Shown: positions 1-10,551 of the stretch, in pieces
Layout: each line of letters starts with the position of its first letter
How positions within the stretch are numbered: the first letter of the stretch is position 1
From: Candidatus Limnocylindria bacterium
Lineage (GTDB): Bacteria; Chloroflexota; Limnocylindria; P2-11E
Direction: 5' to 3'
Length of the DNA: 64,000 nt
Assembly (NCBI GenBank): GCA_035708565.1
Contig: DASSSF010000031.1
Coordinates: forward strand, 10,277-74,276
Translations under genes and position numbers: made by a program
Notes under the pieces: generated by a model
Database searches by the model: none
What the model saw: the letters and a program-made list of their open reading frames with translations, nothing else
What the model was told of the DNA's origin: nothing

Positions 1-258
1 CTCGAGGACGACGCGCGCGGCCCGTACGCCGGCGCCGTCGGCTACGTCGACTTCGACGGCGCGCTCGACACGTGCCTGGCCATCCGCACGGCGGTGGTGA
101 CGAAGGACGTCTGCCGGATCCAGGCGGGCGCCGGCATCGTCGCCGACTCGGAGCCGGCCGCCGAGGAGGCCGAGACGCGCGCGAAGGCCGGCGCGCTGCT
201 CCGCGCGATCGAGCTCGTGCCCACGCTCGACGACGCGATGCGCGGCGGCGGCGCGTGA
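1..258 (+). CDS. Anthranilate synthase / aminodeoxychorismate synthase component I, C-terminal fragment (5' end lies outside the window)
   Basis: Frame-1 translation ...PYAGAVGYVDFDGALDTCLAIRTAVV...IQAGAGIVADSEPAAEEAETRAKAGALL is the conserved TrpE/PabB C-terminus; stop overlaps the next gene start (TGATG). Confidence 0.7.
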   Translation, partial: LEDDARGPYAGAVGYVDFDGALDTCLAIRTAVVTKDVCRIQAGAGIVADSEPAAEEAETRAKAGALLRAIELVPTLDDAMRGGGA

Positions 259-857
259 TGCGGATCCTCCTCGTCGACAACCTCGACTCGTTCACGCACA
301 ACATCGCGCAGGCGCTCGCCGCGCTCGGGGCGGACGTCGACGTCAGGCGGATCGACGATCCGACGCTCGACGATGCGCTCCGCGCCGGCCCGGACGGCGT
401 CGTCGTCTCGCCCGGACCGGGCCGTCCCGAGGACGCGGACGTGGCGCTCCGCGTCGTGCGAGAGGCGCCGGAGCGCGGCATCCCGACGCTCGGGGTGTGC
501 CTCGGCCTCCAGTGCGCGGTCGTCGCCTTCGGCGGCCGCGTGATCCGGGCGCCCGAGCCGCGGCACGGGAAGACCTCGACCGTGACGCACGACGGGCTCG
601 GCGTGTTCGCGGGCATCCACGGGCCGACCGTCGCGACGCGCTATCACTCGCTCGTCGCCGAGGAGGGCTCGCTGCCCGCGGATCTCGTCGTCACGGCGAG
701 GAGCGAGGACGGGCAGGTGATGGGCATCCGCCATCGCGGCCTGCCGCTCGAGGCCGTGCAGTTCCACCCGGAGTCGGTGCTCTCGGCCGACGGGCCGCGG
801 ATGCTCGCGAACTACTGCGAAGCCGTGAGGCGCGGAAGCAGGACGGTCCCGGCGTAG
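258..857 (+). CDS. Glutamine amidotransferase subunit of anthranilate/ADC synthase (TrpG/PabA type)
   Basis: MRILLVDNLDSFTHNIAQAL...GVCLGLQC...QFHPES: class-I GATase catalytic triad context. ATG at 258 lies inside ORF 72..857; the upstream R-rich extension is not credible. Confidence 0.8.
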   Translation: MRILLVDNLDSFTHNIAQALAALGADVDVRRIDDPTLDDALRAGPDGVVVSPGPGRPEDADVALRVVREAPERGIPTLGVCLGLQCAVVAFGGRVIRAPEPRHGKTSTVTHDGLGVFAGIHGPTVATRYHSLVAEEGSLPADLVVTARSEDGQVMGIRHRGLPLEAVQFHPESVLSADGPRMLANYCEAVRRGSRTVPA

Positions 858-867
858 CCGGGAACGC

Positions 868-1317
868 CTATCTCGAGGCGGCGTCCTCGCGGAGGAGCGC
901 GACGAGGCCTTCGAGCGCGAGCAGGTAGGAGCGCCAGCCGAAGCCCGCGACCGTCGCCCGGCACGCCGTCGCCACGACGTCGGTCCGCCGGAACTCTTCG
1001 CGCGCCGCCGGGTTCGTGAGGTGGACGCCGATCGTGGGCAGGCGGACCGCGGCGATCGCGTCGCGGATCGCGACGCTCGTGTGCGAGTACCCGCCCGCGT
1101 TGATCAGGATCCCGCCGGCCCACGTCCTCGCGTCTTGGATGAGGTCGACGAGCTCGCCCTCGAGGTTGCTCTGCCGGGCGAGGACCTCGACGCCGAGCTC
1201 GGTGCCCCGCTCGATGACGCGCGCGTCGAGCTCGGAGAGCGTGAGGCGGCCGTACGTCTCGGGCTCGCGCTCCCCGAGGAGGTTCAGGTTCGGCCCGTGG
1301 AGGACGAGGACCTTCAC
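868..1317 (-). CDS. aroQ: 3-dehydroquinate dehydratase, type II
   Basis: VKVLVLHGPNLNLLGEREPETYG...GGYSHTSVAIRDA...GVHLTNP signature; GTG start, 4-nt overlap with the upstream aroKB stop. Confidence 0.85.
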   Translation of the reverse strand: MKVLVLHGPNLNLLGEREPETYGRLTLSELDARVIERGTELGVEVLARQSNLEGELVDLIQDARTWAGGILINAGGYSHTSVAIRDAIAAVRLPTIGVHLTNPAAREEFRRTDVVATACRATVAGFGWRSYLLALEGLVALLREDAASR

Positions 1318-2909
1318 GCGAGGTGCCCGAGCGCGTCGCGCGGCGCGATGCCGCTCACGAGCGCCGCGCCGCCGGCGGCCGGCACGACGAAGCGCACCGC
1401 GCCGCCGCTGCGCTTCTTGTCGGCCTCCATCGCGGCCAGCATGCGCGCGCGGTCGAGGTCGGGGGCACGCGTCGGGAGGCCGAGGGCGGCGAGCGTCCGG
1501 GCGAGGTCGTCGGCGAGGCGCGGCGGGCACGTGCCGAGCGCCGCGCCCAGCCTCGCCGCGGCCACGAGCCCCATCGCGACCGCGGCGCCGTGCGAGACAC
1601 GGTGCTCGCTCGCGGACTCGATCGCGTGGGCGAACGTGTGGCCGAGGTTGAGCGAGCGCCGCACGCCGGCGTCGCGCGGGTCGGCCGCGACGTAGGCGGC
1701 CTTCACGCGCAGCGCCTGCTCCAGGAGCCACTCGAGCGGCGCATCCGCCGCGAGCTCGGCGACGAGCGGCGAGGCGAGGATCCCCGCCTTCACGATCTCA
1801 GCGAGCCCTTCGGCGGTCGTGCTCGGCCCGAGCGTGCGGCAGACGGCCGGATCCGCGAGGACGAGGCGCGCCGGGTGATACGCCCCGACGAGGTTCTTCG
1901 CGCCCGCGTGGTCGATGGCGACCTTGCCGCCGAGCGCGGCGTCCGCCATCGCGAGCGTCGTGGTGGGCACGTTCACGAGCGGTAGACCCCGCGCGTAGGT
2001 CGCCGCCGCGAAGCCGGCGGCGTCGAGCGCAGCCCCGCCCCCGACCGCGATCACGGCGCAGGACGGGTCGATGCGCTCACCCTGGAACCGCCGCCACAGG
2101 AGGTCGACGGTGGCGAGCGTCTTCGCCGCCTCGCCGGCCGGGATCGCGACGGGGCCGAGCAGCGAGAAGCCGCCCTCGCGGAGCGATCGCTCGATCGGCT
2201 GCACGTGGGCGAGGACCGCCGAGTCGGCGACGACGATCGCGCGCGTCACGTCGGGGGCCGCGGCGCCGAGCTCGCGCGCCGCGGCGGCGAGGATGCCGTC
2301 GCCCACGACCACGCGCGTCGTGACGTCGCCGATGCGCACGTCGAGCCGCAGCGGACCCGGCGCCGCGGCGCTGCGGTAGCGGCCGACGAGCTCGCGCGTC
2401 ACGTCCTCCGCCGTCCGCGCGGAGGTGTCGAGCGCCTCGCCCGCGGCGGCGTACGCGTCGCCGCGCTCGACGGCGAGCCGCTCGAGGGTCGCGCGCGCGT
2501 CGCCGGCGAGGAGCGGCCTCGCGCTCGCGGCGCCGACCCGGCGGACGGCCTCCGCCGGCGTGACCGACAGGAGCGCGCTCACGCCGGTGCGGGCGAGCGA
2601 GGCGAACGACGCGCGGTCGGCCGGGGCGCCGCCGCCCGCCGCGATCACGGTCGACGAGAGCCGCGCGGCGTCGGCCACCGCGGCGCGCTCGAGCGCGCGG
2701 AACGCGGCCTCGCCGCCCGCCGCGAAGATCTCCGCGACCGTCCGGCCCGCCCGGCGCTCGACGACCGCGTCGAGGTCGACGAACGGGAGGCCGAGCGCGG
2801 CCGCGGCCGCGGCGCCGCACGTCGACTTGCCCGCGCCCATGAGCCCGCTCAGCACGAGGTTCGGACGGCCCGGCGGGAGCGGCGGCGCCGGGAGCGGCTC
2901 CGCGGTCAC
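1314..2909 (-). CDS. aroKB: Bifunctional shikimate kinase / 3-dehydroquinate synthase (in-frame AroK-AroB fusion)
   Basis: N-terminal Walker A LVLSGLMGAGKST (shikimate kinase) runs in frame into the AroB body (VVGDGIL...GGGAALDAAGFAA...NVPTTTLAMADAALGGK...LNLGHTFAH). No stop separates the two. GTG start overlaps the aroC stop. Confidence 0.75.
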   Translation of the reverse strand: MTAEPLPAPPLPPGRPNLVLSGLMGAGKSTCGAAAAAALGLPFVDLDAVVERRAGRTVAEIFAAGGEAAFRALERAAVADAARLSSTVIAAGGGAPADRASFASLARTGVSALLSVTPAEAVRRVGAASARPLLAGDARATLERLAVERGDAYAAAGEALDTSARTAEDVTRELVGRYRSAAAPGPLRLDVRIGDVTTRVVVGDGILAAAARELGAAAPDVTRAIVVADSAVLAHVQPIERSLREGGFSLLGPVAIPAGEAAKTLATVDLLWRRFQGERIDPSCAVIAVGGGAALDAAGFAAATYARGLPLVNVPTTTLAMADAALGGKVAIDHAGAKNLVGAYHPARLVLADPAVCRTLGPSTTAEGLAEIVKAGILASPLVAELAADAPLEWLLEQALRVKAAYVAADPRDAGVRRSLNLGHTFAHAIESASEHRVSHGAAVAMGLVAAARLGAALGTCPPRLADDLARTLAALGLPTRAPDLDRARMLAAMEADKKRSGGAVRFVVPAAGGAALVSGIAPRDALGHLA

Positions 2910-4057
2910 CGTGCCGGCAGCGGCCCGGGCGCGAGCCGCTCGAGCGAGGCCGCGATCGCCTCGACGCGATCGCCGCCGACGCGCTCGAGGAGCGCCTCGG
3001 CGAGCACCCACGCGACGGCGGCCTCGCCGACGACCGCGGCGGCGGGCACGGCGCATACGTCGGTCCGCACGTACGGCGCGTCCGCCGGAGCGCCGGTCGC
3101 GAGGTCGACGCTCTCGACGGGGGTGCGCACCGACGACAGCGGCTTCATCGCCGCGCGGAGGACGATGGGCTCGCCGTTCGTGACCCCGCCCTCGAGGCCG
3201 CCCGCGCGGTTCGAGCCCCGCACGAGGCCCGCGCCGTCGCGGCGGATCGGGTCCTGCGCGGCGCTCCCGCGCCGGCGGGCGATCGCGAACGCGTCGCCGA
3301 TCTCGACGCCCTTGATCGCGTGGATCGCGCAGACCGCCTGCGCGAGGCGCCCGTCGAGGCGGCGGTCCCACTGCGCGTACGACCCGAGGCCCGCGGGGAG
3401 GCCGGTCGCGAACACGACGAAGACCCCGCCCACCGTGTCGAGCGCGGCCTTCGCCGCGTCGATGACCTCGCGCATCCGCGGCGCCGCGGCGGCGTCCGGC
3501 GTGCGCACGTCGCTCGCGTCCGCCGCGTCGGCGAGCGCGTGCAGCGCGCTCGCGTCGAGGGACCCGAGATCGGGGACGTCGGCCGCGACGTCGGCGATCG
3601 CGGTGACGTACGAGCCGATGCGGCAGCCCGCGACGGCGAGCAGCTGCTTCGCGATCGCGCCGGCGGCGACGCGCGCGGCGGTCTCCCGCGCGCTCGCGCG
3701 CTCGCGCACGTCCCGCATGTCGGCGTGCCCGTACTTGCGGCTGCCCGCGAGGTCGGCGTGGCCGGGCCGCGGCGCGGTGAGCGGCGGCTTCTCCGCCGGC
3801 TGGTTCGCGAAGTCGCGGTTCACGATCCGCATCGCGATGGGCGCGCCCGTCGTCCGTCCGCCCGCGAGGCCGCTCGTGAGCTCCGCGTGGTCGCGCTCGA
3901 TCTTCGTCGACCGCGCCCCGCGGCCGTACCCGCCCTGGCGGCGCGCGAGGTCGCGGTCGATCGCCGCGCCGTCGAGCGCGAGGCCGGCGGGCACGCCGTC
4001 GACGATGACCGTCAGCTCGGGGCCGTGCGACTCGCCGGCCGTGAGGAAGCGGATCAC
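2906..4057 (-). CDS. aroC: Chorismate synthase
   Basis: VIRFLTAGESHGPELTVIVDGVPAG...GGYGRGARSTKIE...SARETAARVAAGA; 383 aa; GTG start overlaps the aroE stop by 4 nt. Confidence 0.9.
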   Translation of the reverse strand: MIRFLTAGESHGPELTVIVDGVPAGLALDGAAIDRDLARRQGGYGRGARSTKIERDHAELTSGLAGGRTTGAPIAMRIVNRDFANQPAEKPPLTAPRPGHADLAGSRKYGHADMRDVRERASARETAARVAAGAIAKQLLAVAGCRIGSYVTAIADVAADVPDLGSLDASALHALADAADASDVRTPDAAAAPRMREVIDAAKAALDTVGGVFVVFATGLPAGLGSYAQWDRRLDGRLAQAVCAIHAIKGVEIGDAFAIARRRGSAAQDPIRRDGAGLVRGSNRAGGLEGGVTNGEPIVLRAAMKPLSSVRTPVESVDLATGAPADAPYVRTDVCAVPAAAVVGEAAVAWVLAEALLERVGGDRVEAIAASLERLAPGPLPAR

Positions 4058-4872
4058 GGCGCCACCGGCGGCCGCTCGAGGGCCGCGTACGCCGCGCCGC
4101 GCATGATCTCGAGCGGCGCCTCGCGACCCGTCCAGAGCGAGAAGGACAGGGCCCCCTGCTCGACGAGCATCTCGACGCCCTCGAGCACGGCGCACCCCGC
4201 CGCCTCGGCGCGCGCGAGGAGCGGCGTGCGGCGCGGGCGGTACGCGAGGTCGGCGACGATCCGGCCCGGACGCAGCGCGGACGCGATGTGGAAGGCGTCG
4301 CCGTCGCGCCAGGCCGTCGACGGGACCGCGCTCACGATGAGGTCGCTCCGCGACGCGACAGCGGCGGCCGACGCCTGGTCGATCGGTCGCACGCCGAGCG
4401 GTCGCATCGCTTCCGCCGCCGCGAGGTCGCGCGCGGTGACCGCGACCTCCAAGCCGGCCGACCGCAGCGCGGCGGCGATCGCGCGTGCCGCTCCGCCGGC
4501 GCCGAGGATGAGCGCGCTCCGCGGCGCGAGGCCCGCGTGGCGGAGCGCGCGGAGGAAGCCCGCCCCGTCCGTGGAGTGCCCCGTCGTCCTGCCGCCGTCG
4601 CCGACCACGACCGTGTTCACGGACATCGTGCCCCGCGCGCTGTCGGCGACCACGTCGACGAGCCGCGCGACCGCATCCTTCAGCGGGATCGTCACGTTCA
4701 TGCCGCGCGTCTCTTGCGCGAGCTCGGGGAAGCGCCGCGCGACCTCGTCGCGCGTGACGCGCAGCGCGACGTACTCGAGGTCGAGACCACACGCGCGCAG
4801 CGCCGCGTTCTGCATGTCGGGCGACACGCTCTCCGCGACCGGGTCGCCGATCAGCGCGATGCGTCCCGTCAC
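4054..4872 (-). CDS. aroE: Shikimate 5-dehydrogenase
   Basis: VTGRIALIGDPVAESVSPDMQNAA...NVTIPLK...ILGAGGAARAIA motifs; GTG start overlaps the tyrA stop. Confidence 0.8.
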   Translation of the reverse strand: MTGRIALIGDPVAESVSPDMQNAALRACGLDLEYVALRVTRDEVARRFPELAQETRGMNVTIPLKDAVARLVDVVADSARGTMSVNTVVVGDGGRTTGHSTDGAGFLRALRHAGLAPRSALILGAGGAARAIAAALRSAGLEVAVTARDLAAAEAMRPLGVRPIDQASAAAVASRSDLIVSAVPSTAWRDGDAFHIASALRPGRIVADLAYRPRRTPLLARAEAAGCAVLEGVEMLVEQGALSFSLWTGREAPLEIMRGAAYAALERPPVAP

Positions 4873-5651
4873 CCGCCGAGCCTCCGCGCGAGCGCGGCTT
4901 CGTCCGCGACGAGGCCCTCGTAGTCCTCGAGCTGCCGCGCCAGGAGCCGGAGCGCGGGCCGCACGTCGCCGGCGGTCGCCGCGGCCCACTCCGCGACCGA
5001 GGCGGGGTCCGCCGCCGCGAGCCGCGTGGCCCCGCGGTAGCCGGGCCCGGCGAGCCGCTCCGAGGCGGGCAGCGCGGCGAGCGCCCGCGCCATGAGGTGG
5101 GGAAGCACGACCGTGACCGCGACGGCCGCGTCGTGCTCGTCCGCGTCGAGCACGATCGGCACCGCGCCGAGGGCGACGGCGAGCGCGCGCGCCCGTTCGA
5201 GCGCGACCGGGTCGTCGCGCACGGGGCACAGCGCGAACGTCGCACCGCGCAGCGAGGCCGGGTCCGCTCCTTCGGGTCCCGACCGCTCCGTACCCGCGAC
5301 CGGGTGGCCGCCGATCGCGTGGACGGCCGGCGCGAGGGCCCGCATCGCGCGCACCACGGGCCGCTTCACCGTCGCGGTGTCGATGACGAGGCTGCCGGGA
5401 CGGAAGCGCGCCCCGCCGAGCGTGGCGACGAGCGCCGCGAGCGGCAGCGCGAGCACGACGGTGTCGCTCGCGATCGCGTCGTCGAGCGAGGTCGAGCGCC
5501 GGCCCGCGCCGCGCGCGAGGCTCCGCCGCGCGGCCTGGTCGTCCCGGTCGTGGAGCACGACCTCCGAGGCGGCGCCGGAGGCGCCGAGGGCGCAGCCGAT
5601 GGCCGTGCCGATCTGGCCCGTGCCGACGATGCCGACGCGCCCGAGCGTCAC
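4869..5651 (-). CDS. tyrA: Prephenate (arogenate) dehydrogenase
   Basis: GRVGIVGTGQIGTAIG Rossmann motif, HPVAGTE, PDH-type C-terminal domain; GTG start overlaps the DAHP synthase stop. Confidence 0.75.
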   Translation of the reverse strand: MTLGRVGIVGTGQIGTAIGCALGASGAASEVVLHDRDDQAARRSLARGAGRRSTSLDDAIASDTVVLALPLAALVATLGGARFRPGSLVIDTATVKRPVVRAMRALAPAVHAIGGHPVAGTERSGPEGADPASLRGATFALCPVRDDPVALERARALAVALGAVPIVLDADEHDAAVAVTVVLPHLMARALAALPASERLAGPGYRGATRLAAADPASVAEWAAATAGDVRPALRLLARQLEDYEGLVADEAALARRLGG

Positions 5652-6664
5652 GCGACCCGCCGCCCGATGGCCGCGGCGACGCCGGTGAGCTCGTCCATCA
5701 GATGCCGGAATCCCCGCGGGTCGAGCGACTGGGGCCCGTCGGAGAGCGCGCGCGACGGATCGGGGTGCGTCTCGATGAGCAGCGCGTCGGCGCCGCACGC
5801 GACGGCCGCGCGCGCGACCGGGCCGACGAGCTCGCGCCTTCCGGTCGCGTGGCTCGGGTCGACGACGACCGGCAGGTGGGTGAGCTCCTTCAGGACGGGC
5901 ACGGCGTTGATGTCGAGCGTGAAGCGCGTCGACTGCTCGAACGTGCGGATCCCTCGCTCGCACACGGCGACGTCCTCGTTGCCGTGCGCGAGGATGTACT
6001 CGGCCGCCTGGAGGAGCTCGTCCACGGTCGACCCGAGGCCTCGCTTGAGGAGGATCGGCCTGCCCGCGCCGCCGGCCGACCGGAGCAGCGCGAAGTTCGT
6101 CATGTTCCTCGCGCCGATCTGGAGGATGTCCGCGTGCTCCGCGACGAGCGCCACGTCCTCGGGCGTGACGACCTCGGTCACGACCGCCATCCCGTGCTCG
6201 TCCGCGACGGTGCGGAGGAGGCGGAGCCCTTCGGCGCCCAGGCCCTGGAACGAGTACGGCGACGTCCGCGGCTTGAACGCCCCGCCGCGCAGCACCTTCA
6301 CGCCCGCCGCCGCGACGTACGCGGCGGTCTCGCGGAGCTGCGCCTCGCTCTCGACCGCGCACGGCCCGGCCATCACGAGCACGTCCGGGCCTCCGAGGCG
6401 CGCGCCGTTCGCGAGCGTGATGACGCGGTCCGCCGGATGGAAGTCGCGGCTCGCGAGCTTGAACGGACGGAGGATGCGCACGACGCGCTCGACGCCGGGA
6501 AGCTCCTCGAACATCTCGGGCTCGTACCCGCGCTCGTCACCGACGATCCCGACGACCGTGCGCTCGACGCCGCGGGACAGATGCGCCCGGAACCCGAGCG
6601 AGCCGATCCGGTCGAGCACGACCTCGAGGTCGTTCTCGGTCGCGTCCGAGCGCATGACGATCAC
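5648..6664 (-). CDS. aroG: 3-deoxy-7-phosphoheptulonate (DAHP) synthase, type I-beta (KDO8P-synthase-like)
   Basis: 338 aa; GPCAVESEAQ...LKRG...HLPVVVDPSHATGRRELV is typical of Bacillus/Thermotoga-type DAHP synthases; ATGA overlap with the aroH stop. Confidence 0.8.
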   Translation of the reverse strand: MIVMRSDATENDLEVVLDRIGSLGFRAHLSRGVERTVVGIVGDERGYEPEMFEELPGVERVVRILRPFKLASRDFHPADRVITLANGARLGGPDVLVMAGPCAVESEAQLRETAAYVAAAGVKVLRGGAFKPRTSPYSFQGLGAEGLRLLRTVADEHGMAVVTEVVTPEDVALVAEHADILQIGARNMTNFALLRSAGGAGRPILLKRGLGSTVDELLQAAEYILAHGNEDVAVCERGIRTFEQSTRFTLDINAVPVLKELTHLPVVVDPSHATGRRELVGPVARAAVACGADALLIETHPDPSRALSDGPQSLDPRGFRHLMDELTGVAAAIGRRVA

Positions 6665-7020
6665 GTCGCGCTCCCGGCGAGGTCGGGCCGCAGCGCCGCG
6701 GCCCGCCCGAGGTAGGCGTGCCGGATCTCGCGCTGCGTGCGCGCGGTGTTCCAGAGCACGAGGACGCGGATGCAGCGGGGGAGGACGTGCTCGTCGGTGT
6801 GCTCGCGGACGACGAGCATCGGGACCGTCTCCCAGCCGTGCGCCCGCGCGGCCGCCGCCGGGTTCGCGCCGTCGAGGTCCCCGGTGACGGTGAAGATCGC
6901 GGCGGCGATGTCCGAGACGTCGCAGCCGTTCGCTCCGACCACGGCGTCGAGGAGCGCGACGGTGGCGCGCTCCACGCCGGCCTCGCCGACGTCGGTCGCG
7001 CCGCGGATCCCGCGACAGGC
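6661..7020 (-). CDS. aroH: Monofunctional chorismate mutase, AroH class; start codon uncertain
   Basis: ...RGIRGATDVGE...AIFTVTGDL...CIRVLVLWNTARTQREIRHAYLGRAAALRPDL matches B. subtilis AroH along its length. No in-frame ATG/GTG/TTG lies near the expected N-terminus (ACRGIRGA), so the start is uncertain. Confidence 0.7.
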   Translation of the reverse strand, partial: ACRGIRGATDVGEAGVERATVALLDAVVGANGCDVSDIAAAIFTVTGDLDGANPAAAARAHGWETVPMLVVREHTDEHVLPRCIRVLVLWNTARTQREIRHAYLGRAAALRPDLAGSAT

Positions 7021-7039
7021 CTTCTCCGTGACCGTGCCC

Positions 7040-7090
7040 CCCTTCTCCGCTAGAAAAACGGAACGCGGAGCCTTCGCTCCGCGTCCTGCG
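7040..7090 (-). terminator. Intrinsic terminator / attenuator hairpin (GACGCGGAGC-GAAG-GCUCCGCGUU followed by CCGUUUUUCU) between the leader ORF and aroH
   Basis: A 9 to 10-bp GC stem read on the minus strand, followed by a U tract. An upstream segment CCGCGUCC inside the leader ORF can pair with the 5' arm GGACGCGG, giving an alternative antiterminator. Confidence 0.55.
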
Positions 7091-7112
7091 CCCGGTGCCA
7101 GTGGATCGGCTG

Positions 7113-7208
7113 CTAGCCCGACACGGCTCCCTCGGCGGACGCGGCGGCCCACGCCCAATAGGCGTAGGCGAAACCGAACCGCCGATACGTGGTCCGCATC
7201 GCCGTCAT
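7113..7208 (-). CDS. Putative aromatic-amino-acid attenuation leader peptide (31 aa, MTAMRTTYRRFGFAYAYWAWAAASAEGAVSG)
   Basis: ATG preceded by a GGGGG SD-like sequence. Seven Phe/Tyr/Trp codons cluster at residues 8 to 20. Its position between the pheA stop and the aroH terminator hairpin matches trpL/pheL-type leaders. Confidence 0.55.
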   Translation of the reverse strand: MTAMRTTYRRFGFAYAYWAWAAASAEGAVSG

Positions 7209-7246
7209 GCTCGCCCCCGCGCGGCGCCGCGTCAAGGGAACGCTCT

Positions 7247-8107
7247 CTAGGGGTCGATGACCGTCGTCGCGGCGGGGTAGGTGCCGATGACCTGGACCCA
7301 CGCGCACGCGTGGCGCATGAGGGCGAGCGCCTCCGCGGCCGGCGCGACGGCGGGGTCGCCCTCGAAGTCGACGTAGAAGACGTAGTCCCACGCCGCGACG
7401 CGGCTCGGACGGGACTCGATGCGCGAGAGCTGCACGCCGGCGGTCGCGAACGGCTGGAGCGCGCGCACGAGCGCGCCGGGGACGTTGAGCGCGGTGAACG
7501 CGAGGCTCGTCTTCGGCGGTCCGGCCCGGAGCGCGGCGGGGACACCGGCGGCGTGCGCGGCGTCCCGCGCGACGGCGAGGAAGCGCGTGATGTTGTCCGC
7601 GGCGCTCTCGATGTCCTCGGCGAGCACGGTGAGGCCGTAGCGCTCGGCCGCGCGACGGCTCGCGATCGCCGCGATCGCCGGGTCGCCGCGCTCCGCGACC
7701 TCGGCCGCGGCGCCCGCGGTGTCGAAGGCGATCTCCGCGCGGATGCCGCGCTCGCGCAGGAAGGCGTCGGACTGCGCGAGCGCCTGCGGATGCGAGCGCG
7801 CGGCGCGCACGCCTCCGAGGGTCGCTCCCGGAGGGCCGAGGAGGCAGTGGCGCACGCGGACGAGCGCCTCGGCGAGGACGCGGATCCGCTCGTCGCCGCG
7901 GAGGAGGTCGAACACGTCGGCAACGGGCCCCGCGTACGAGTTCTCGACGGGAACGACCGCGGCATCCGCCGCCGCGTCGCGAAGGGCGGCGAACGCGGCG
8001 TCGAAGCTCGCGTGCGGGAGGAGCGTCGCCGACGGGAACAGCGCCGCCGCGGCGGACTCCGAGTACGCGCCTGCGACGCCCTGGAACGCGACGCGCAGCG
8101 CGGTCAC
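7247..8107 (-). CDS. pheA: Prephenate dehydratase
   Basis: RVAFQGVAGAYSE...PDT domain...TRF...ESRP plus ACT domain; ATG start overlaps the aroA stop (ATGA). Confidence 0.85.
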   Translation of the reverse strand: MTALRVAFQGVAGAYSESAAAALFPSATLLPHASFDAAFAALRDAAADAAVVPVENSYAGPVADVFDLLRGDERIRVLAEALVRVRHCLLGPPGATLGGVRAARSHPQALAQSDAFLRERGIRAEIAFDTAGAAAEVAERGDPAIAAIASRRAAERYGLTVLAEDIESAADNITRFLAVARDAAHAAGVPAALRAGPPKTSLAFTALNVPGALVRALQPFATAGVQLSRIESRPSRVAAWDYVFYVDFEGDPAVAPAAEALALMRHACAWVQVIGTYPAATTVIDP

Positions 8108-9375
8108 GCGAGTTCGCGGAGCATGTCGAAGAATCCGGGGTACGTCTTCGTGACCGCGTCGGCGCCCTCGATCGCGACGCCGGGCACCTGGAGCCCGAGC
8201 ACCGCGAACGCCATCGCGATGCGGTGATCGCCGCGCGCGTCGACGACGCCGCCGGCGAGGGGCGCGGGCTCCACGCGGATCGCGTCGGCGTACTCCGTCA
8301 CGCTCGCGCCGAGGGCGCGGAGCCCGGCCGCGACGGCGGCGACCCGGTCGCTCTCCTGCCGCCGCGTGTGCCCGATCCCGGTGAGCTCCGTGGGCGTCGA
8401 CGCGCAGGCGCCGATCACGGCGAGCGTCGGGAACACGTCGGAGCAGTCGCGGACGTCCGCCGTGACGCCGAAGAGCGCGCCGGTGCGCCTGACCGTCACG
8501 CCGAGGCCGCCGAAGGCGGACGCGTCGACCGCGCAGCCCGCCGCGCGGAGCAGGTCGAAGAAGCGCGCGTCGCCCTGCGCTCCCCGGCGCGTCGACGCGT
8601 CCACGTTCTCGACGGTCACCGACCCGCCGAGGATCGCGGCCGCGGCGGCCGGGTAGGTCGCGGCCGTCACGTCACCGGGGATCTCGACGTCGCGCGCGCG
8701 GACCTCCTGTGGCCGCACCTCGAAGGTGCGCGGCGCCGGGCGCGCGACCTCGACGCCGCGCGCCTCGAGCGCCGCCACGGTGAGCTCGACGAACGGCTCC
8801 GAGACGAGCGGACCGGTGATCCGCAGCCGGACCCCGTTCGCCGTGCGCGGCGCGGCGAGCAGGAGCGCCGACGCGAACTGGCTCGACTCGGCCCCCGACA
8901 CCGCGACCTCGCCGCCGGCCAGCGGGCCGGACACGGTGATCGGCAGCGCCTCGCCCTCGGCCGTGGCGCCGAGCGCCCGCAGCGCGTCCACGAGCGCGGC
9001 GATCGGCCGCCGGCGGAGCTGGGGGCTCCCGTCGACGGTCACGCGGCCGCCGCCCAGCGCGGCGAGGGCCAGGCCGAAGCGCGCGACGGTCCCGCCGTCC
9101 CCGGCGTCGACCGTGACGCTGCGGCCGGGCGGGGTCGGCGAGCCGCGCACGACGATGCGCTCGGCGTCGCGCGAGACCTCGTAGCCGAGGTCCACGAGCG
9201 CCTGCTGCATCGCGCGGACGTCGTCGCCCGGGTCAAGCGGGCCGATCTCGAGCCGCGACCTGCCCGCGGCGAGCGCCGAGAGGACGAGCTCCCGGTTCGT
9301 CACGCTCTTCGACGCGGGGACGCGCACGCGCTTCTCGATCGGGTGACGGATCGGGGGGATGGGTCGCGGAGCCAC
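8104..9375 (-). CDS. aroA: 3-phosphoshikimate 1-carboxyvinyltransferase (EPSP synthase)
   Basis: PASKSVTNRELVLSALAAG...GDGGTVARF...RPI...GDHRIAMAFAV; GTG start (VAPRPIPP...); 423 aa. Confidence 0.9.
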   Translation of the reverse strand: MAPRPIPPIRHPIEKRVRVPASKSVTNRELVLSALAAGRSRLEIGPLDPGDDVRAMQQALVDLGYEVSRDAERIVVRGSPTPPGRSVTVDAGDGGTVARFGLALAALGGGRVTVDGSPQLRRRPIAALVDALRALGATAEGEALPITVSGPLAGGEVAVSGAESSQFASALLLAAPRTANGVRLRITGPLVSEPFVELTVAALEARGVEVARPAPRTFEVRPQEVRARDVEIPGDVTAATYPAAAAAILGGSVTVENVDASTRRGAQGDARFFDLLRAAGCAVDASAFGGLGVTVRRTGALFGVTADVRDCSDVFPTLAVIGACASTPTELTGIGHTRRQESDRVAAVAAGLRALGASVTEYADAIRVEPAPLAGGVVDARGDHRIAMAFAVLGLQVPGVAIEGADAVTKTYPGFFDMLRELA

Positions 9376-9396
9376 GGACGAGCGATCATATGGGAA

Positions 9397-10551
9397 GTGA
9401 CACGCAACGGCGGCGCCGGCCCGCTCGTCCTCGTCGCGGTCGCGGGCGTCCTCGCGGCCGGCGCCTACCTGTTCCTGTTCGGGGCGCCGTTCGCGGATCC
9501 CGCGACGTCCGCCCCGCGCGGCGGTGCGCCCTCCGCCTCCGCCTCGCCGCGCGCGACGCCCGCGCCGAAGCCGCCTGAGCTCAAGATCGCGCACGACACC
9601 TGCTGCACGCAGGCAGCGCGGTTCCTGAGCGTGACCTGGACGTCGTCGGAGCCCGTGAGCGAGGCTGCCGTGGCCGTCGCGCCGGACCCCGGGTTCGCGT
9701 GCGCCGCGACGGTCGACGAGAGCCGCGTCAAGGGCACGTTCGGATGCGCCGGGCTCCTGCGCGGCGGCGTCGACCACACCGCGACCCTCACGGTGCGGAC
9801 GGCCGCCGGATCGTTCCCGGTCGCGCACCGGTTCAGGACGATGGGCGACCGCCTCACGGACGTGAGGTGGTTCACCGAGTTCGAGGACCCGCGCGGCGAC
9901 CCCCTCGCGTGTGCCGCCGCGAGCGTGCGGATCGTGCAGAACTACACGACGGGCCAGGACAAGGCGACGGCCGAGCAGATCCTGCGACAGGGCCAGGGCC
10001 TCAACCGCAGCCGCGACCCCGGCATCGACCCGGTCGCGATCGCCGCGGTGCAGCGCGCGCTCGATCCGCGGAACGCCTACCACTACTACCGCTTCGACAC
10101 GCGCGAGGACGCGACGTACGCCGCGGTCTACTGGCTCCTGCGGAGCGGCAAGCCGGTCCACGTGATCACGCTCGCCGGGCAGCACGATCCGCTGCTCATC
10201 GGTTTCATGGGGACGTTCGGCACGCACTTCGGCGACCCCGCGAACGACGTCACCGGCGTCGTGGTGCAGGACCCGCAGCGAGGCGACATGCGGCCGGAGA
10301 CGCTGAGCCGCCGGCCCGACAAGTACCGCACGCCAGAGTTCCAGACCGGGCGCCTGCTCCTGCCGGGCGAGTGGTACCGCGACGAGTGGTGGCTCGGCTT
10401 CGCGTACGCGGCCGTGGTCGACGGCGTGAACATCGACCGGAACGACGGCGCGTACCCGCTGCCGCACTGGGCGGGGAAGTTCGTGATCGTCGTCGACGAT
10501 GCCGACCCTCAGTGGCCCGCCGACCGCGAAGGCAGGGTGAGGTTCCGATGA
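9397..10551 (+). CDS. Hypothetical membrane-anchored extracytoplasmic protein (N-terminal TM helix; possible Cys/His papain-like fold domain)
   Basis: GTG start; PLVLVAVAGVLAAGAYLFLF signal-anchor; strong GC3 bias; C-terminal domain with conserved Cys and His. Divergent from aroA with only about 21 nt between the starts. Confidence 0.5.
   Translation: MTRNGGAGPLVLVAVAGVLAAGAYLFLFGAPFADPATSAPRGGAPSASASPRATPAPKPPELKIAHDTCCTQAARFLSVTWTSSEPVSEAAVAVAPDPGFACAATVDESRVKGTFGCAGLLRGGVDHTATLTVRTAAGSFPVAHRFRTMGDRLTDVRWFTEFEDPRGDPLACAAASVRIVQNYTTGQDKATAEQILRQGQGLNRSRDPGIDPVAIAAVQRALDPRNAYHYYRFDTREDATYAAVYWLLRSGKPVHVITLAGQHDPLLIGFMGTFGTHFGDPANDVTGVVVQDPQRGDMRPETLSRRPDKYRTPEFQTGRLLLPGEWYRDEWWLGFAYAAVVDGVNIDRNDGAYPLPHWAGKFVIVVDDADPQWPADREGRVRFR

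What the first reader, a model, noticed from the sequence alone, without database searches (positions are those of the whole stretch)
7040..7210. Candidate ribosome-mediated attenuator whose leader peptide is rich in Phe, Tyr and Trp, controlling a seven-gene aromatic amino-acid operon
Between the pheA stop (7247) and aroH, on the minus strand, a 31-codon ORF (MTAMRTTYRRFGFAYAYWAWAAASAEGAVSG) has a G-rich SD and carries 2 Phe, 3 Tyr and 2 Trp codons within 13 codons. About 30 nt after its stop there is a GC hairpin (GACGCGGAGC-GAAG-GCUCCGCGUU) followed by CCGUUUUUCU. A leader segment CCGCGUCC lying just 3' of the Trp codons is perfectly complementary to the terminator's 5' arm GGACGCGG, which gives the classic mutually exclusive antiterminator/terminator pair. 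The downstream genes aroH-DAHPS-tyrA-aroE-aroC-aroKB-aroQ are all coupled by 4-nt overlaps, so one attenuator would gate the whole common aromatic pathway in response to all three aromatic tRNAs. A trpL/pheL-style leader covering F, Y and W together in front of a chorismate supraoperon is unusual. The comparable case I recall is the aroR leader reported upstream of aroF in Corynebacterium.
Basis: partly seen in the sequence, partly recalled or inferred. Interest (0 to 1): 0.8.

Follow-up and report, generated by a model that had tools for sequence, protein, structure and literature searches.

The report
Aromatic leader-peptide attenuator before aroH operon
A short reading frame packed with Phe, Tyr and Trp codons, followed by a terminator hairpin, sits in front of a seven-gene aromatic amino-acid operon; it belongs to a conserved but uncatalogued family of classical ribosome-sensing attenuators found in many uncultured Chloroflexota and Actinomycetota, so it is a real but mechanistically ordinary switch.

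Summary
The interpretation, a ribosome-mediated attenuator, is well supported, with three corrections.

1. The element has its own conserved promoter (TTGACG, 17 nt, GAGCAT) directly after the pheA stop. The leader ORF therefore most likely starts at the second ATG (7199). That gives 28 codons on a leaderless mRNA, and the 'G-rich SD' lies inside the promoter.
2. It is not a one-off. Small F/Y/W-rich ORFs followed by a terminator with the conserved stem CGUGGAGC/GCUCCACG lie 60-130 nt upstream of aroH-DAHP synthase in most of 80 related loci. A covariance model built from 18 of them finds full-length matches in about 40 loci and one copy in the window.
3. The antiterminator (7144-7137 with 7086-7079) is backed by covariation: 9 of 13 pairs show changes on both sides, and the window itself carries three compensatory changes. 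The second Trp codon is too close to it to act. A 1:2 helix is only weakly supported.

No Rfam family matches. The closest described analogues are aroR of Corynebacterium glutamicum and the uORFC-13-1 motif of Acholeplasma, both upstream of aroF.

Verdict: a new member of a known kind, of moderate interest. No experimental data exist for it.

The parts
7230..7235 (-). Predicted -35 box, TTGACG, 11 nt after the pheA stop codon.
   Evidence: TTGAC[GC], then 16-19 nt, NANNNT, 7-10 nt and the leader ATG is present in 18 of 18 close family members and in four further relatives. This is inferred from conservation. No transcription start site data exist.
7207..7212 (-). Predicted -10 box, GAGCAT, 17 nt after the -35 box.
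   Evidence: The equivalent hexamers in relatives are CAGGAT, CAAGAT, CACACT and TAGGAT.
7113..7199 (-). Leader ORF, 28 codons plus TAG: MRTTYRRFGFAYAYWAWAAASAEGAVSG. Its ATG lies 7 nt after the -10 box, so the mRNA is probably leaderless. The in-frame ATG at 7208 (31 codons) could serve on read-through transcripts coming from pheA.
   Evidence: Seven relatives have a leader ORF of exactly 28 codons. A gene caller called the 31-codon version on the identical Logan contig.
7149..7187 (-). Run of regulatory codons: Tyr 7187, Phe 7178, Phe 7172, Tyr 7166, Tyr 7160, Trp 7157, Trp 7151 (first base of each codon).
   Evidence: Across 18 leaders, 98 aromatic codons lie in the ORF frame against 13 and 32 in the other two frames. 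That is 17% of leader codons, against 3.7% in the window's aro genes. F and Y swap between the window and L082.
7173..7185 (-). Tentative segment 1 (UCGGCGG..CGGU). It can pair with 7145-7132 and would enclose the aromatic codons in its loop.
   Evidence: Seen in the MFE folds. L082 has UCGGCAG/CUGCCGA, a compensatory change. The best partner of segment 2 falls at ORF nt 2-34 (mostly about 7-28) in 16 of 18 leaders (combined p 3.5e-5, sequences not independent). It is not thermodynamically dominant.
7137..7144 (-). Segment 2, the 5' strand of the antiterminator (CCGCGUCC). It lies inside the leader ORF, 4 nt after the last Trp codon and 24 nt before the end of the ORF.
   Evidence: It is the exact complement of 7086-7079. 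On alignment A2, columns 26-38 pair with 85-97 in 85% of cells, 9 of 13 pairs change on both sides, and slid controls give 36-53%.
7061..7086 (-). Intrinsic terminator hairpin: segment 3 (GGACGCGGAGC, 7086-7076), loop GAAG, segment 4 (GCUCCGCGUUC, 7071-7061).
   Evidence: -21.2 kcal/mol. On A2, 97% of cells are paired and 3 pairs change on both sides. The stem sequence is conserved across phyla.
7054..7058 (-). U-run of the terminator (UUUUU).
   Evidence: It is the only run of five or more T in the 64-kb window on either strand.
7055..7162 (-). Extent of the match to covariance model R1, built from the family alignment.
   Evidence: 77.8 bits, E 2.4e-16. It is the only full-length match in the window; the window row was one of the 18 sequences the model was built from, so the match itself is by construction.
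6661..7035 (-). aroH (AroH-type chorismate mutase), the first regulated gene. No ATG, GTG or TTG lies between the terminator and the conserved ACRGIRGAT. Candidate starts are ACG at 7035 or 7029, after the SD-like GGAGAAGGGGGG (7048-7037), or ATC at 7008.
   Evidence: Pfam CM_1, homologue alignment, codon view, relatives.
868..6664 (-). Remainder of the regulated operon: DAHP synthase (6664-5648), tyrA (5651-4869), aroE (4872-4054), aroC (4057-2906), aroK-aroB fusion (2909-1314), aroQ (1317-868). Every junction is a GTGA overlap.
7247..9450 (-). Upstream genes aroA (EPSP synthase) and pheA (prephenate dehydratase, 8107-7247). They are coupled by a GTGA overlap, and no terminator separates pheA from the leader promoter.

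Best explanation
This is a classical ribosome-mediated transcription attenuator that senses charged aromatic tRNAs. It controls aroH, DAHP synthase, tyrA, aroE, aroC, aroKB and aroQ.

Proposed sequence of events:
1. Transcription starts at a promoter placed directly after pheA (-35 at 7235-7230, -10 at 7212-7207). It begins at or next to the ATG at 7199, so the 28-codon leader ORF is translated from a leaderless mRNA.
2. When Phe- and Tyr-tRNA (and to a lesser degree Trp-tRNA) are plentiful, the ribosome runs over segment 2 (7144-7137) to the stop codon at 7115-7113. That stop lies between segment 2 and segment 3.
3. Segment 3 (7086-7076) is then free to pair with segment 4 (7071-7061). The hairpin plus UUUUU terminates transcription before aroH.
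4. When an aromatic tRNA is scarce, the ribosome stalls on one of the F, Y or first W codons (7187-7155). That position is upstream of segment 2.
5. Segment 2 then pairs with segment 3 as soon as segment 3 is made. The terminator cannot form, and RNA polymerase reads into the operon.

Transcripts reading through from aroA-pheA would meet the same decision point.

Shown here: the sequence elements, their conservation, the covariation of both helices, and the geometry. Inferred: the promoter and leaderless start, translation of the ORF, and the response to amino-acid supply.
For: **Anatomy.**

**Conservation of a frame-specific aromatic ORF.**
- The nearest relative, L082 (AroH 80% identical), has the same-length ORF with F/Y swaps and an almost identical 3' half.
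- Seven relatives (L082, L002, L005, L089, L090, L091, L093) have a leader of exactly 28 codons, as the window does.
- 56% of 77 loci reach at least 6 aromatic residues in 13 codons, against 1.4% of shuffles and 0.6% of other windows.
- Aromatic codons number 98 in frame against 13 and 32 out of frame.

**Terminator.**
- Strong hairpins with U-runs lie 20-35 nt after the leader stop in about 50 loci.
- On A2, 97% of cells are paired, with compensatory changes.
- It carries the only run of five or more T in 64 kb.

**Antiterminator.**
- 85% of cells are paired, 9 of 13 pairs change on both sides (1 of 500 shuffles reaches this), and slid controls give 36-53%.
- Against the family consensus the window carries G-C for A-U, U-A for C-G and C-G for U-A.
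- Conserved C-terminal peptide motifs (PTPS, GRLLHD) coincide with the antiterminator strand, so they are RNA constraints.

**Geometry.**
- With a 28-nt footprint, the nascent window transcript forms 2:3 with probability 0.85-0.98 when the A site is on codons 3-15. The probability is 0 from codon 17 to the stop.
- Across 18 members, 87% of 98 aromatic codons allow 2:3. None of the 108 last-six codons does.

**One family.** Model R1 finds full-length matches just upstream of aroH in about 40 loci, spanning Actinomycetota, Limnocylindria, Anaerolineae and Herpetosiphonaceae.

**Promoter.** Present in 18 of 18 close members and 4 of 4 further relatives.

**Precedent.** Leaderless leader peptides are usual in Actinobacteria (PMC8079986). 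aroR (Phe-Tyr-Phe) attenuates aroF in C. glutamicum (PMC11802643).
Against: - There is no transcript or ribosome data for this organism or any family member.
- At equilibrium the full transcript folds into the terminator with probability 0.99 regardless of ribosome position. The antiterminator can therefore act only kinetically. That is normal for this class but is not demonstrated here.
- For the window alone, the 2:3 duplex energy is not better than for shuffled GC-rich sequence (p 0.3). Support comes from comparison, not from this sequence by itself.
- Without any ribosome, 2:3 is predicted to form in most members (median probability 0.88). The usual default-off 1:2 state is therefore weakly supported.
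- The last Trp codon, and in many relatives the last aromatic codon, lies within 2-8 nt of segment 2. A stall there should favour termination.
- The promoter consensus of this phylum has not been tested.
Confidence: 0.85

Rival explanations
1. The hairpin is simply the terminator of the aroA-pheA transcript and aroH has an ordinary promoter. On this view the small ORF and the complementarity are chance products of GC-rich sequence.
For: aroA-pheA have no other terminator. The window's 2:3 duplex energy is not exceptional against shuffles. The terminator count in 12 kb is not above the shuffle expectation.
Against: - The predicted promoter lies upstream of the hairpin, not downstream of it.
- The element travels with aroH whatever lies upstream: pheA in the window and L082, aroA in the Limnocylindria-type loci, other genes elsewhere. 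In Anaerolineae, pheA lies downstream of aroH.
- The aromatic ORF is conserved and frame-specific.
- The antiterminator covaries.
Confidence: 0.03
2. The leader RNA is a conditional terminator read by a trans-acting factor (a tRNA as in T-boxes, a TRAP-like protein, or a metabolite). On this view the ORF is not translated.
For: Conserved alternative terminator and antiterminator helices are common to all these mechanisms. Translation of the ORF is not shown.
Against: - No Rfam family, T-box included, matches at E up to 10 in the window or up to 1 in eight relatives.
- The region between the start and segment 2 is conserved as codon class (F/Y/W in one frame, interchangeable), not as sequence or structure.
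- The ATG sits at a fixed 7-10 nt from the -10 box.
- The stop codon keeps a fixed distance from segments 2 and 3.
Confidence: 0.05
3. The leader works through the nascent peptide or through translation. Either the peptide arrests the ribosome in response to a free amino acid, as TnaC does, or the ORF controls aroH translation by coupling or reinitiation. On this view it does not sense tRNA charging to control termination.
For: The C-terminal parts of the peptides look conserved (PTPS, GRLLHD). aroH has an odd, probably weak, start codon.
Against: - The conserved peptide motifs coincide with the antiterminator strand and change together with segment 3.
- The leader stop lies 60-130 nt from aroH, with a hairpin and U-run in between. 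That arrangement fits termination, not coupling.
- The peptide sequence outside the aromatic class varies freely.
Confidence: 0.04

Closest known systems
aroR leader of Corynebacterium glutamicum (Neshat et al. 2014, as summarised in PMC11802643 and PMC4046766)
   Same: Both are leader-peptide attenuators with aromatic codons in front of an operon that starts the shikimate pathway with a DAHP synthase. Both occur in a high-GC Gram-positive-type lineage where leader ORFs are typically leaderless.
   Different: - aroR has a Phe-Tyr-Phe triplet. It responds to Phe but not to Tyr (PMC11802643).
- The window's leader has seven aromatic codons, including two Trp, spread over 13 codons.
- Here the first gene is an AroH-type chorismate mutase. 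The DAHP synthase carries the ferredoxin-like N-terminal domain. Seven translationally coupled genes follow.
Enterobacterial trpL, pheL and hisL attenuators
   Same: The logic is the same. Regulatory codons lie upstream of segment 2, the leader stop lies before segment 3, the 2:3 antiterminator excludes the 3:4 terminator, and the terminator is the more stable structure.
   Different: - No Rfam leader model matches.
- The leader here is probably leaderless rather than SD-driven.
- It mixes three amino acids.
- The 1:2 helix is weak and would enclose the regulatory codons rather than contain them.
- The leader ORF continues about 24 nt past segment 2.
uORFC-13-1 motif upstream of aroF in Acholeplasma (PMC8632094)
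   Same: It is a predicted uORF with Phe codons, promoter boxes and an adjacent intrinsic terminator upstream of a DAHP synthase gene.
   Different: It comes from a different phylum with low GC, has an RBS-driven uORF, and carries a U-run coding for Phe only. No sequence relationship was tested.
Leaderless leader peptides of Streptomyces (trpL1, leuL, ilvL; PMC8079986)
   Same: They are leaderless short ORFs followed by hairpins and U-rich stretches in front of amino-acid genes in high-GC bacteria.
   Different: They sense other amino acids and regulate other genes. None was reported for aromatic common-pathway genes in that study.

Membership tests
Classical ribosome-mediated (leader-peptide) transcription attenuators | A short ORF upstream of a biosynthetic operon, enriched in codons for the pathway's end products. 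| tested here: met
   7 of 28 codons are F, Y or W. The enrichment is conserved and frame-specific. The downstream genes are confirmed as aromatic biosynthesis genes.
Classical ribosome-mediated (leader-peptide) transcription attenuators | An intrinsic terminator between the leader ORF and the first structural gene. | tested here: met
   Hairpin at 7086-7061 plus UUUUU. It is conserved with covariation.
Classical ribosome-mediated (leader-peptide) transcription attenuators | An antiterminator that shares a strand with the terminator. It must be free when a ribosome stalls on the regulatory codons and blocked when the ribosome reaches the stop codon. | tested here: met
   Covariation of 2:3. 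Footprint folding for the window and for 18 members.
Classical ribosome-mediated (leader-peptide) transcription attenuators | A 1:2 helix (pause or anti-antiterminator hairpin) that sequesters segment 2 when the leader is not being translated. | tested here: inconclusive
   A candidate 5' partner is found at a consistent position, with one compensatory change between the window and L082. However, 2:3 still dominates the nascent fold without a ribosome in most members.
Classical ribosome-mediated (leader-peptide) transcription attenuators | Read-through increases on starvation for the cognate amino acids, and a short terminated transcript accumulates otherwise. | not testable with these tools
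   No transcriptome data are available for this uncultured organism.
aroR attenuator of Corynebacterium glutamicum | Sequence or structure homology to the aroR leader, including its Phe-Tyr-Phe motif. | not tested
The window peptide has no F-Y-F triplet. The resemblance is functional only.
Rfam amino-acid leader families (Trp_leader, Phe_leader RF01859, His_leader and others) and T-box | A match to the family covariance model. | tested here: not met
   No such hit at E up to 10 in window 6000-8500. No hit at the element at E up to 1 in eight related loci. The one Phe_leader hit (29.5 bits against a cut-off of 55) lies elsewhere, on the opposite strand of L016.
The aroH-upstream aromatic leader family defined here (model R1) | A full-length match to the model, position directly upstream of aroH-DAHP synthase, and an aromatic ORF ending 20-35 nt before the terminator. 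| tested here: met
   The window scores 77.8 bits over model positions 1-108, though it was one of the sequences the model was built from. Position and ORF features are shown.

The most novel reading that the evidence does not exclude
The element represents an undescribed RNA family that spans two phyla (Chloroflexota and uncultured Actinomycetota). Its terminator stem is conserved in sequence (CGUGGAGC/GCUCCACG). It would combine Phe, Tyr and, in part, Trp charging into one decision over the entire shikimate and chorismate pathway. It would do so from a leaderless leader ORF embedded inside a nine-gene aro cluster, and it is paired with a chorismate mutase gene that initiates at a non-canonical ACG codon.
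Probability: 0.5. Interest if true: 0.5.

Novelty: new member of a known kind. Interest (0 to 1): 0.4.

Why it matters
- It gives a concrete, testable regulatory model for the whole common aromatic pathway in abundant but mostly uncultured soil and sediment lineages, where almost nothing is known about gene regulation.
- It supplies a ready-made alignment and covariance model for a cis-regulatory family that Rfam 15 lacks.
- It shows that gene callers mis-handle this locus. They either call the leader as a protein or truncate aroH.
- It extends the short list of leader-peptide attenuators in front of DAHP synthase genes (aroR, uORFC-13-1) to a much larger and older group.
- It does not reveal a new mechanism.

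Tried and rejected
- **Rfam.** Searches of the window region and of eight relatives found nothing relevant.
- **Metagenome pattern scan.** A scan for the window-type terminator (AGGACGCGGAGC, 3-7 nt, GCTCCGCGTT) returned six unrelated terminators and no further close relatives.
- **Duplex energy against shuffles.** As a per-sequence test this is weak in GC-rich sequence. For 2:3 the window gives p 0.3, and only about 55% of loci reach p 0.05 or better. For 1:2 the median p is 0.13. I therefore relied on column-wise covariation and positional conservation.
- **The -35 region as segment 1.** In the whole-spacer fold the -35 region (UUGACGCGGCG) pairs with segment 2. L082 does not keep this pairing, and the region is probably not transcribed from the element's own promoter, so I rejected it.
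- **An N-terminally extended AroH.** The in-frame TTG or GTG inside the leader could start an extended AroH. I rejected this because it would run through the terminator, and homologues start 3-20 residues before ACRGIRGAT.
- **Papers not held.** Neshat 2014 and Lopatovskaya 2010 are not in the library. A prior description in them or elsewhere cannot be excluded.
- **Unused tools.** Structure prediction and protein-level tools were not used, because the question concerns RNA.

Full report
**1. The observation**

All features lie on the minus strand.
- pheA ends with TAG at 7249-7247.
- A 31-codon ORF runs from ATG 7208 to TAG 7115-7113. It encodes MTAMRTTYRRFGFAYAYWAWAAASAEGAVSG, with 3 Tyr, 2 Phe and 2 Trp within 13 codons.
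- A hairpin follows 26 nt later: GGACGCGGAGC-GAAG-GCUCCGCGUUC (7086-7061), then CGUUUUUCU. It is the only terminator-like site in the first 12 kb. Its U-run is the only run of five or more T on either strand of the 64-kb window, which is 73% G+C.
- CCGCGUCC (7144-7137) is the exact complement of GGACGCGG (7086-7079).
- Pfam confirms every gene. aroA (EPSP synthase) and pheA (PDT plus ACT) lie upstream. Downstream are aroH (CM_1), DAHP synthase (DAHP_synth_1 with the ferredoxin-like domain), tyrA, aroE, aroC, an aroK-aroB fusion and aroQ.
- Every junction, aroA-pheA included, is a GTGA start/stop overlap.

**2. Is it conserved?**

An identical contig exists in a Logan assembly, where a gene caller had called the 31-codon ORF.

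The nearest relative is L082, a farmland metagenome contig whose AroH is 80% identical.
- It has the same pheA, spacer, aroH layout.
- Its ORF is the same length: MEPMRTSYRQYAFAYAFWAWASASAEGAVSG.
- Three residues in the aromatic stretch differ (F11 to Y, G12 to A, Y17 to F). The Phe/Tyr changes swap one aromatic residue for the other, so the aromatic count is unchanged.
- The 3' half of the element is nearly identical at the nucleotide level.

A scan of one genome per species with an AroH alignment returned 80 loci, mostly MAGs of Actinomycetota and Chloroflexota.
- aroH followed by DAHP synthase is conserved in nearly all of them. pheA directly upstream occurs only in the window and L082.
- Most loci carry a small ORF with 5-9 aromatic residues in 13 codons, ending 60-130 nt upstream of aroH. 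Examples are L008 (MIVTGNGGRSYWTYAYAWAWRPTPSRTAIG) and the cultured Ornatilinea apprima, L023 (MKNNSFAYSYYFYFYFTQPREVCFMTGGGVSE).
- At least 6 aromatic residues in 13 codons is reached in 56% of 77 loci. The figure is 1.4% for dinucleotide shuffles and 0.6% for other 300-nt windows of the same loci.
- In 18 close members, aromatic codons number 98 in the ORF frame against 13 and 32 in the other frames. That is 17% of codons, against 3.7% in the window's aro genes.

It fails to refute.

**3. The RNA structures**

About 50 loci have a strong hairpin plus U-run 20-35 nt after the leader stop. The stem sequence is strikingly conserved: CGUGGAGC/GCUCCACG.

I aligned the window with 17 relatives (alignment A2).

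| Helix | A2 columns | Cells paired | Pairs changed on both sides | Slid controls |
|---|---|---|---|---|
| Terminator | 90-100 with 109-119 | 97% | 3 of 11 | 36-61% |
| Antiterminator | 26-38 with 85-97 | 85% | 9 of 13 (1 of 500 shuffles reaches this) | 36-53% |

- The family consensus for the antiterminator is CCACGCCUUCC / GGAAGGCGUGG. The window has CCGCGUCC / GGACGCGG. That amounts to three double compensatory changes (G-C for A-U, U-A for C-G, C-G for U-A).
- The antiterminator's 5' strand lies inside the leader ORF. This explains the apparently conserved peptide tails: PTPS in the Actinomycetota-type leaders, and GRLLHD in Anaerolineae, where GGUUGCUUCACG pairs with CGUGGAGCAACC.
- A covariance model built from A2 (R1) finds exactly one full-length match in the window (7055-7162, 77.8 bits; the window row was part of the alignment the model was built from). 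It also finds full-length matches at the same place upstream of aroH in about 40 loci, including Anaerolineae and Herpetosiphonaceae that were not in the seed.

This is one homologous family. It is not convergence.

**4. Promoter and start codon**

All 18 close members have TTGAC[GC], 16-19 nt, NANNNT, 7-10 nt, and then the ATG of the aromatic ORF. So do four further relatives fetched later.

In the window:
- The -35 box is at 7235-7230.
- The ATG that fits the family spacing is the second one, at 7199. It gives a 28-codon leader, MRTTYRRFGFAYAYWAWAAASAEGAVSG.

Seven relatives (L082, L002, L005, L089, L090, L091, L093) have leaders of exactly 28 codons beginning M-R/Q/C. The leader is therefore most likely translated from a leaderless or nearly leaderless mRNA. 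That is the norm for leader peptides in Actinobacteria (PMC8079986).

This step is inferred from conservation and is not shown. Transcripts reading through from aroA-pheA, which have no terminator of their own, could use either ATG.

**5. Mechanism**

I folded the nascent RNA (up to, but not including, segment 4) downstream of a ribosome footprint placed at each codon.

| Sequences | Ribosome A site | Probability that 2:3 forms |
|---|---|---|
| Window | codons 3-15: all Phe and Tyr codons and the first Trp | 0.85-0.98 |
| Window | codon 16 | 0.53 |
| Window | codon 17 (second Trp) to the stop | 0 |
| 18 members | 98 aromatic codons | above 0.5 for 87% |
| 18 members | the last six codons (108 cases) | above 0.5 for none |

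- The stop codon lies 19-24 nt after segment 2 and 20-30 nt before segment 3.
- These results fit the classical model. Stalling on hungry aromatic codons leaves segment 2 free to capture segment 3. Unhindered translation covers segment 2, or places a ribosome between 2 and 3, and the terminator forms.
- At equilibrium the complete transcript is 99% terminator. The antiterminator is therefore a kinetic trap, as in trpL.
- A 5' partner for segment 2 ('segment 1', 7185-7173 in the window) is found at a consistent position. It shows one compensatory change between the window and L082. It is not thermodynamically dominant, so I treat it as tentative.
- Tyr is encoded mostly by UAU in the leaders (33 UAU to 8 UAC). 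The window's aro genes use 1 UAU to 27 UAC. This bias fits selection for slow decoding, with the caveat that each relative's own codon usage was not measured.

**6. Rival explanations**

- **A plain terminator for aroA-pheA.** The promoter lies upstream of the hairpin. The element follows aroH whatever lies upstream of it.
- **A trans-factor riboswitch or T-box.** No Rfam hit supports it. The 5' half is conserved as a codon class in one frame, not as sequence.
- **A nascent-peptide or translational-coupling mechanism.** The peptide motifs covary with segment 3. A hairpin and U-run separate the leader from aroH.

**7. Comparison with what is known**

- aroR of C. glutamicum is a Phe-Tyr-Phe leader upstream of aroF that responds to Phe limitation (PMC11802643, PMC4046766).
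- The Breaker laboratory's uORFC-13-1 motif is a Phe-coding uORF with a terminator upstream of aroF in Acholeplasma (PMC8632094).
- I found no description of the present family and no Rfam model for it.
- Two relevant papers are not held in the library, and homology to aroR could not be tested.
- The mechanism is textbook. Mixed-amino-acid leaders and leaderless leaders are both known.

I classify the element as a new member of a known kind, of moderate interest.

**8. Likely source**

The closest DAHP synthases (82-83% identity) and leaders are in MAGs labelled Candidatus Limnocylindria and Chloroflexota. The window therefore probably comes from a high-GC soil member of that group.

Noticed in passing
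window 7050-7006 (minus strand); L005, L089, L090, L091, L093 upstream of aroH: aroH has no ATG, GTG or TTG between the terminator and the conserved, catalytically important N-terminus ACRGIRGAT. This is true in the window and in five relatives. All six keep a purine-rich, SD-like stretch (GAAAGGGG / GGAGAAGGGGGG; GAGAGGAG in L005) followed a few nt later by ACG. L002 and L082 have ATG at that position. Gene callers start at an internal GTG, giving 104-110 aa, or at ATC (NCBI protein P0016), which truncates the enzyme. A conserved ACG (or ATC) initiation codon is likely.
   Followed up: partly
window 1-64000, both strands: The attenuator's UUUUU (7058-7054, minus strand) is the only run of five or more T in the whole 64-kb window. 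Base composition alone would predict about five. Canonical U-rich intrinsic terminators therefore seem to be almost absent from this genome, apart from this regulatory one.
   Followed up: partly
leader ORFs of the window and 17 relatives; window aro genes 868-8107: Tyr codons in the leaders are mostly UAU (33 UAU to 8 UAC). The window's aro genes use UAC almost exclusively (27 UAC to 1 UAU). This suggests selection for a slowly decoded codon in the sensor.
   Followed up: partly
window 7247-8107 compared with L005, L089-L093: In the nearest Limnocylindria-type relatives, aroA ends immediately before the leader promoter. Only the window and L082 have pheA inserted between aroA and the leader. 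In Anaerolineae, pheA lies downstream of aroH instead.
   Followed up: partly
alignment A2, column 95 (window 7081): In most family members one terminator position is a U-G wobble in the 3:4 helix but a Watson-Crick A-U in the 2:3 helix. This looks like tuning of the balance between the two structures. The window has C-G in the terminator and G-C in the antiterminator at this position.
   Followed up: no
L083 and L087 (JGI metagenome contigs), near the pattern match: The metagenome pattern scan picked up by chance an unrelated leader ORF rich in branched-chain residues (MLVIVAVAIVS...), directly before a terminator with the same stem sequence as the window's. It is presumably an ilv-type attenuator in another organism.
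   Followed up: no
window 249-857 (+ strand): A glutamine amidotransferase gene of the trpG/pabA type converges on the end of aroQ. The aromatic cluster therefore abuts another gene related to chorismate use, on the opposite strand.
   Followed up: no
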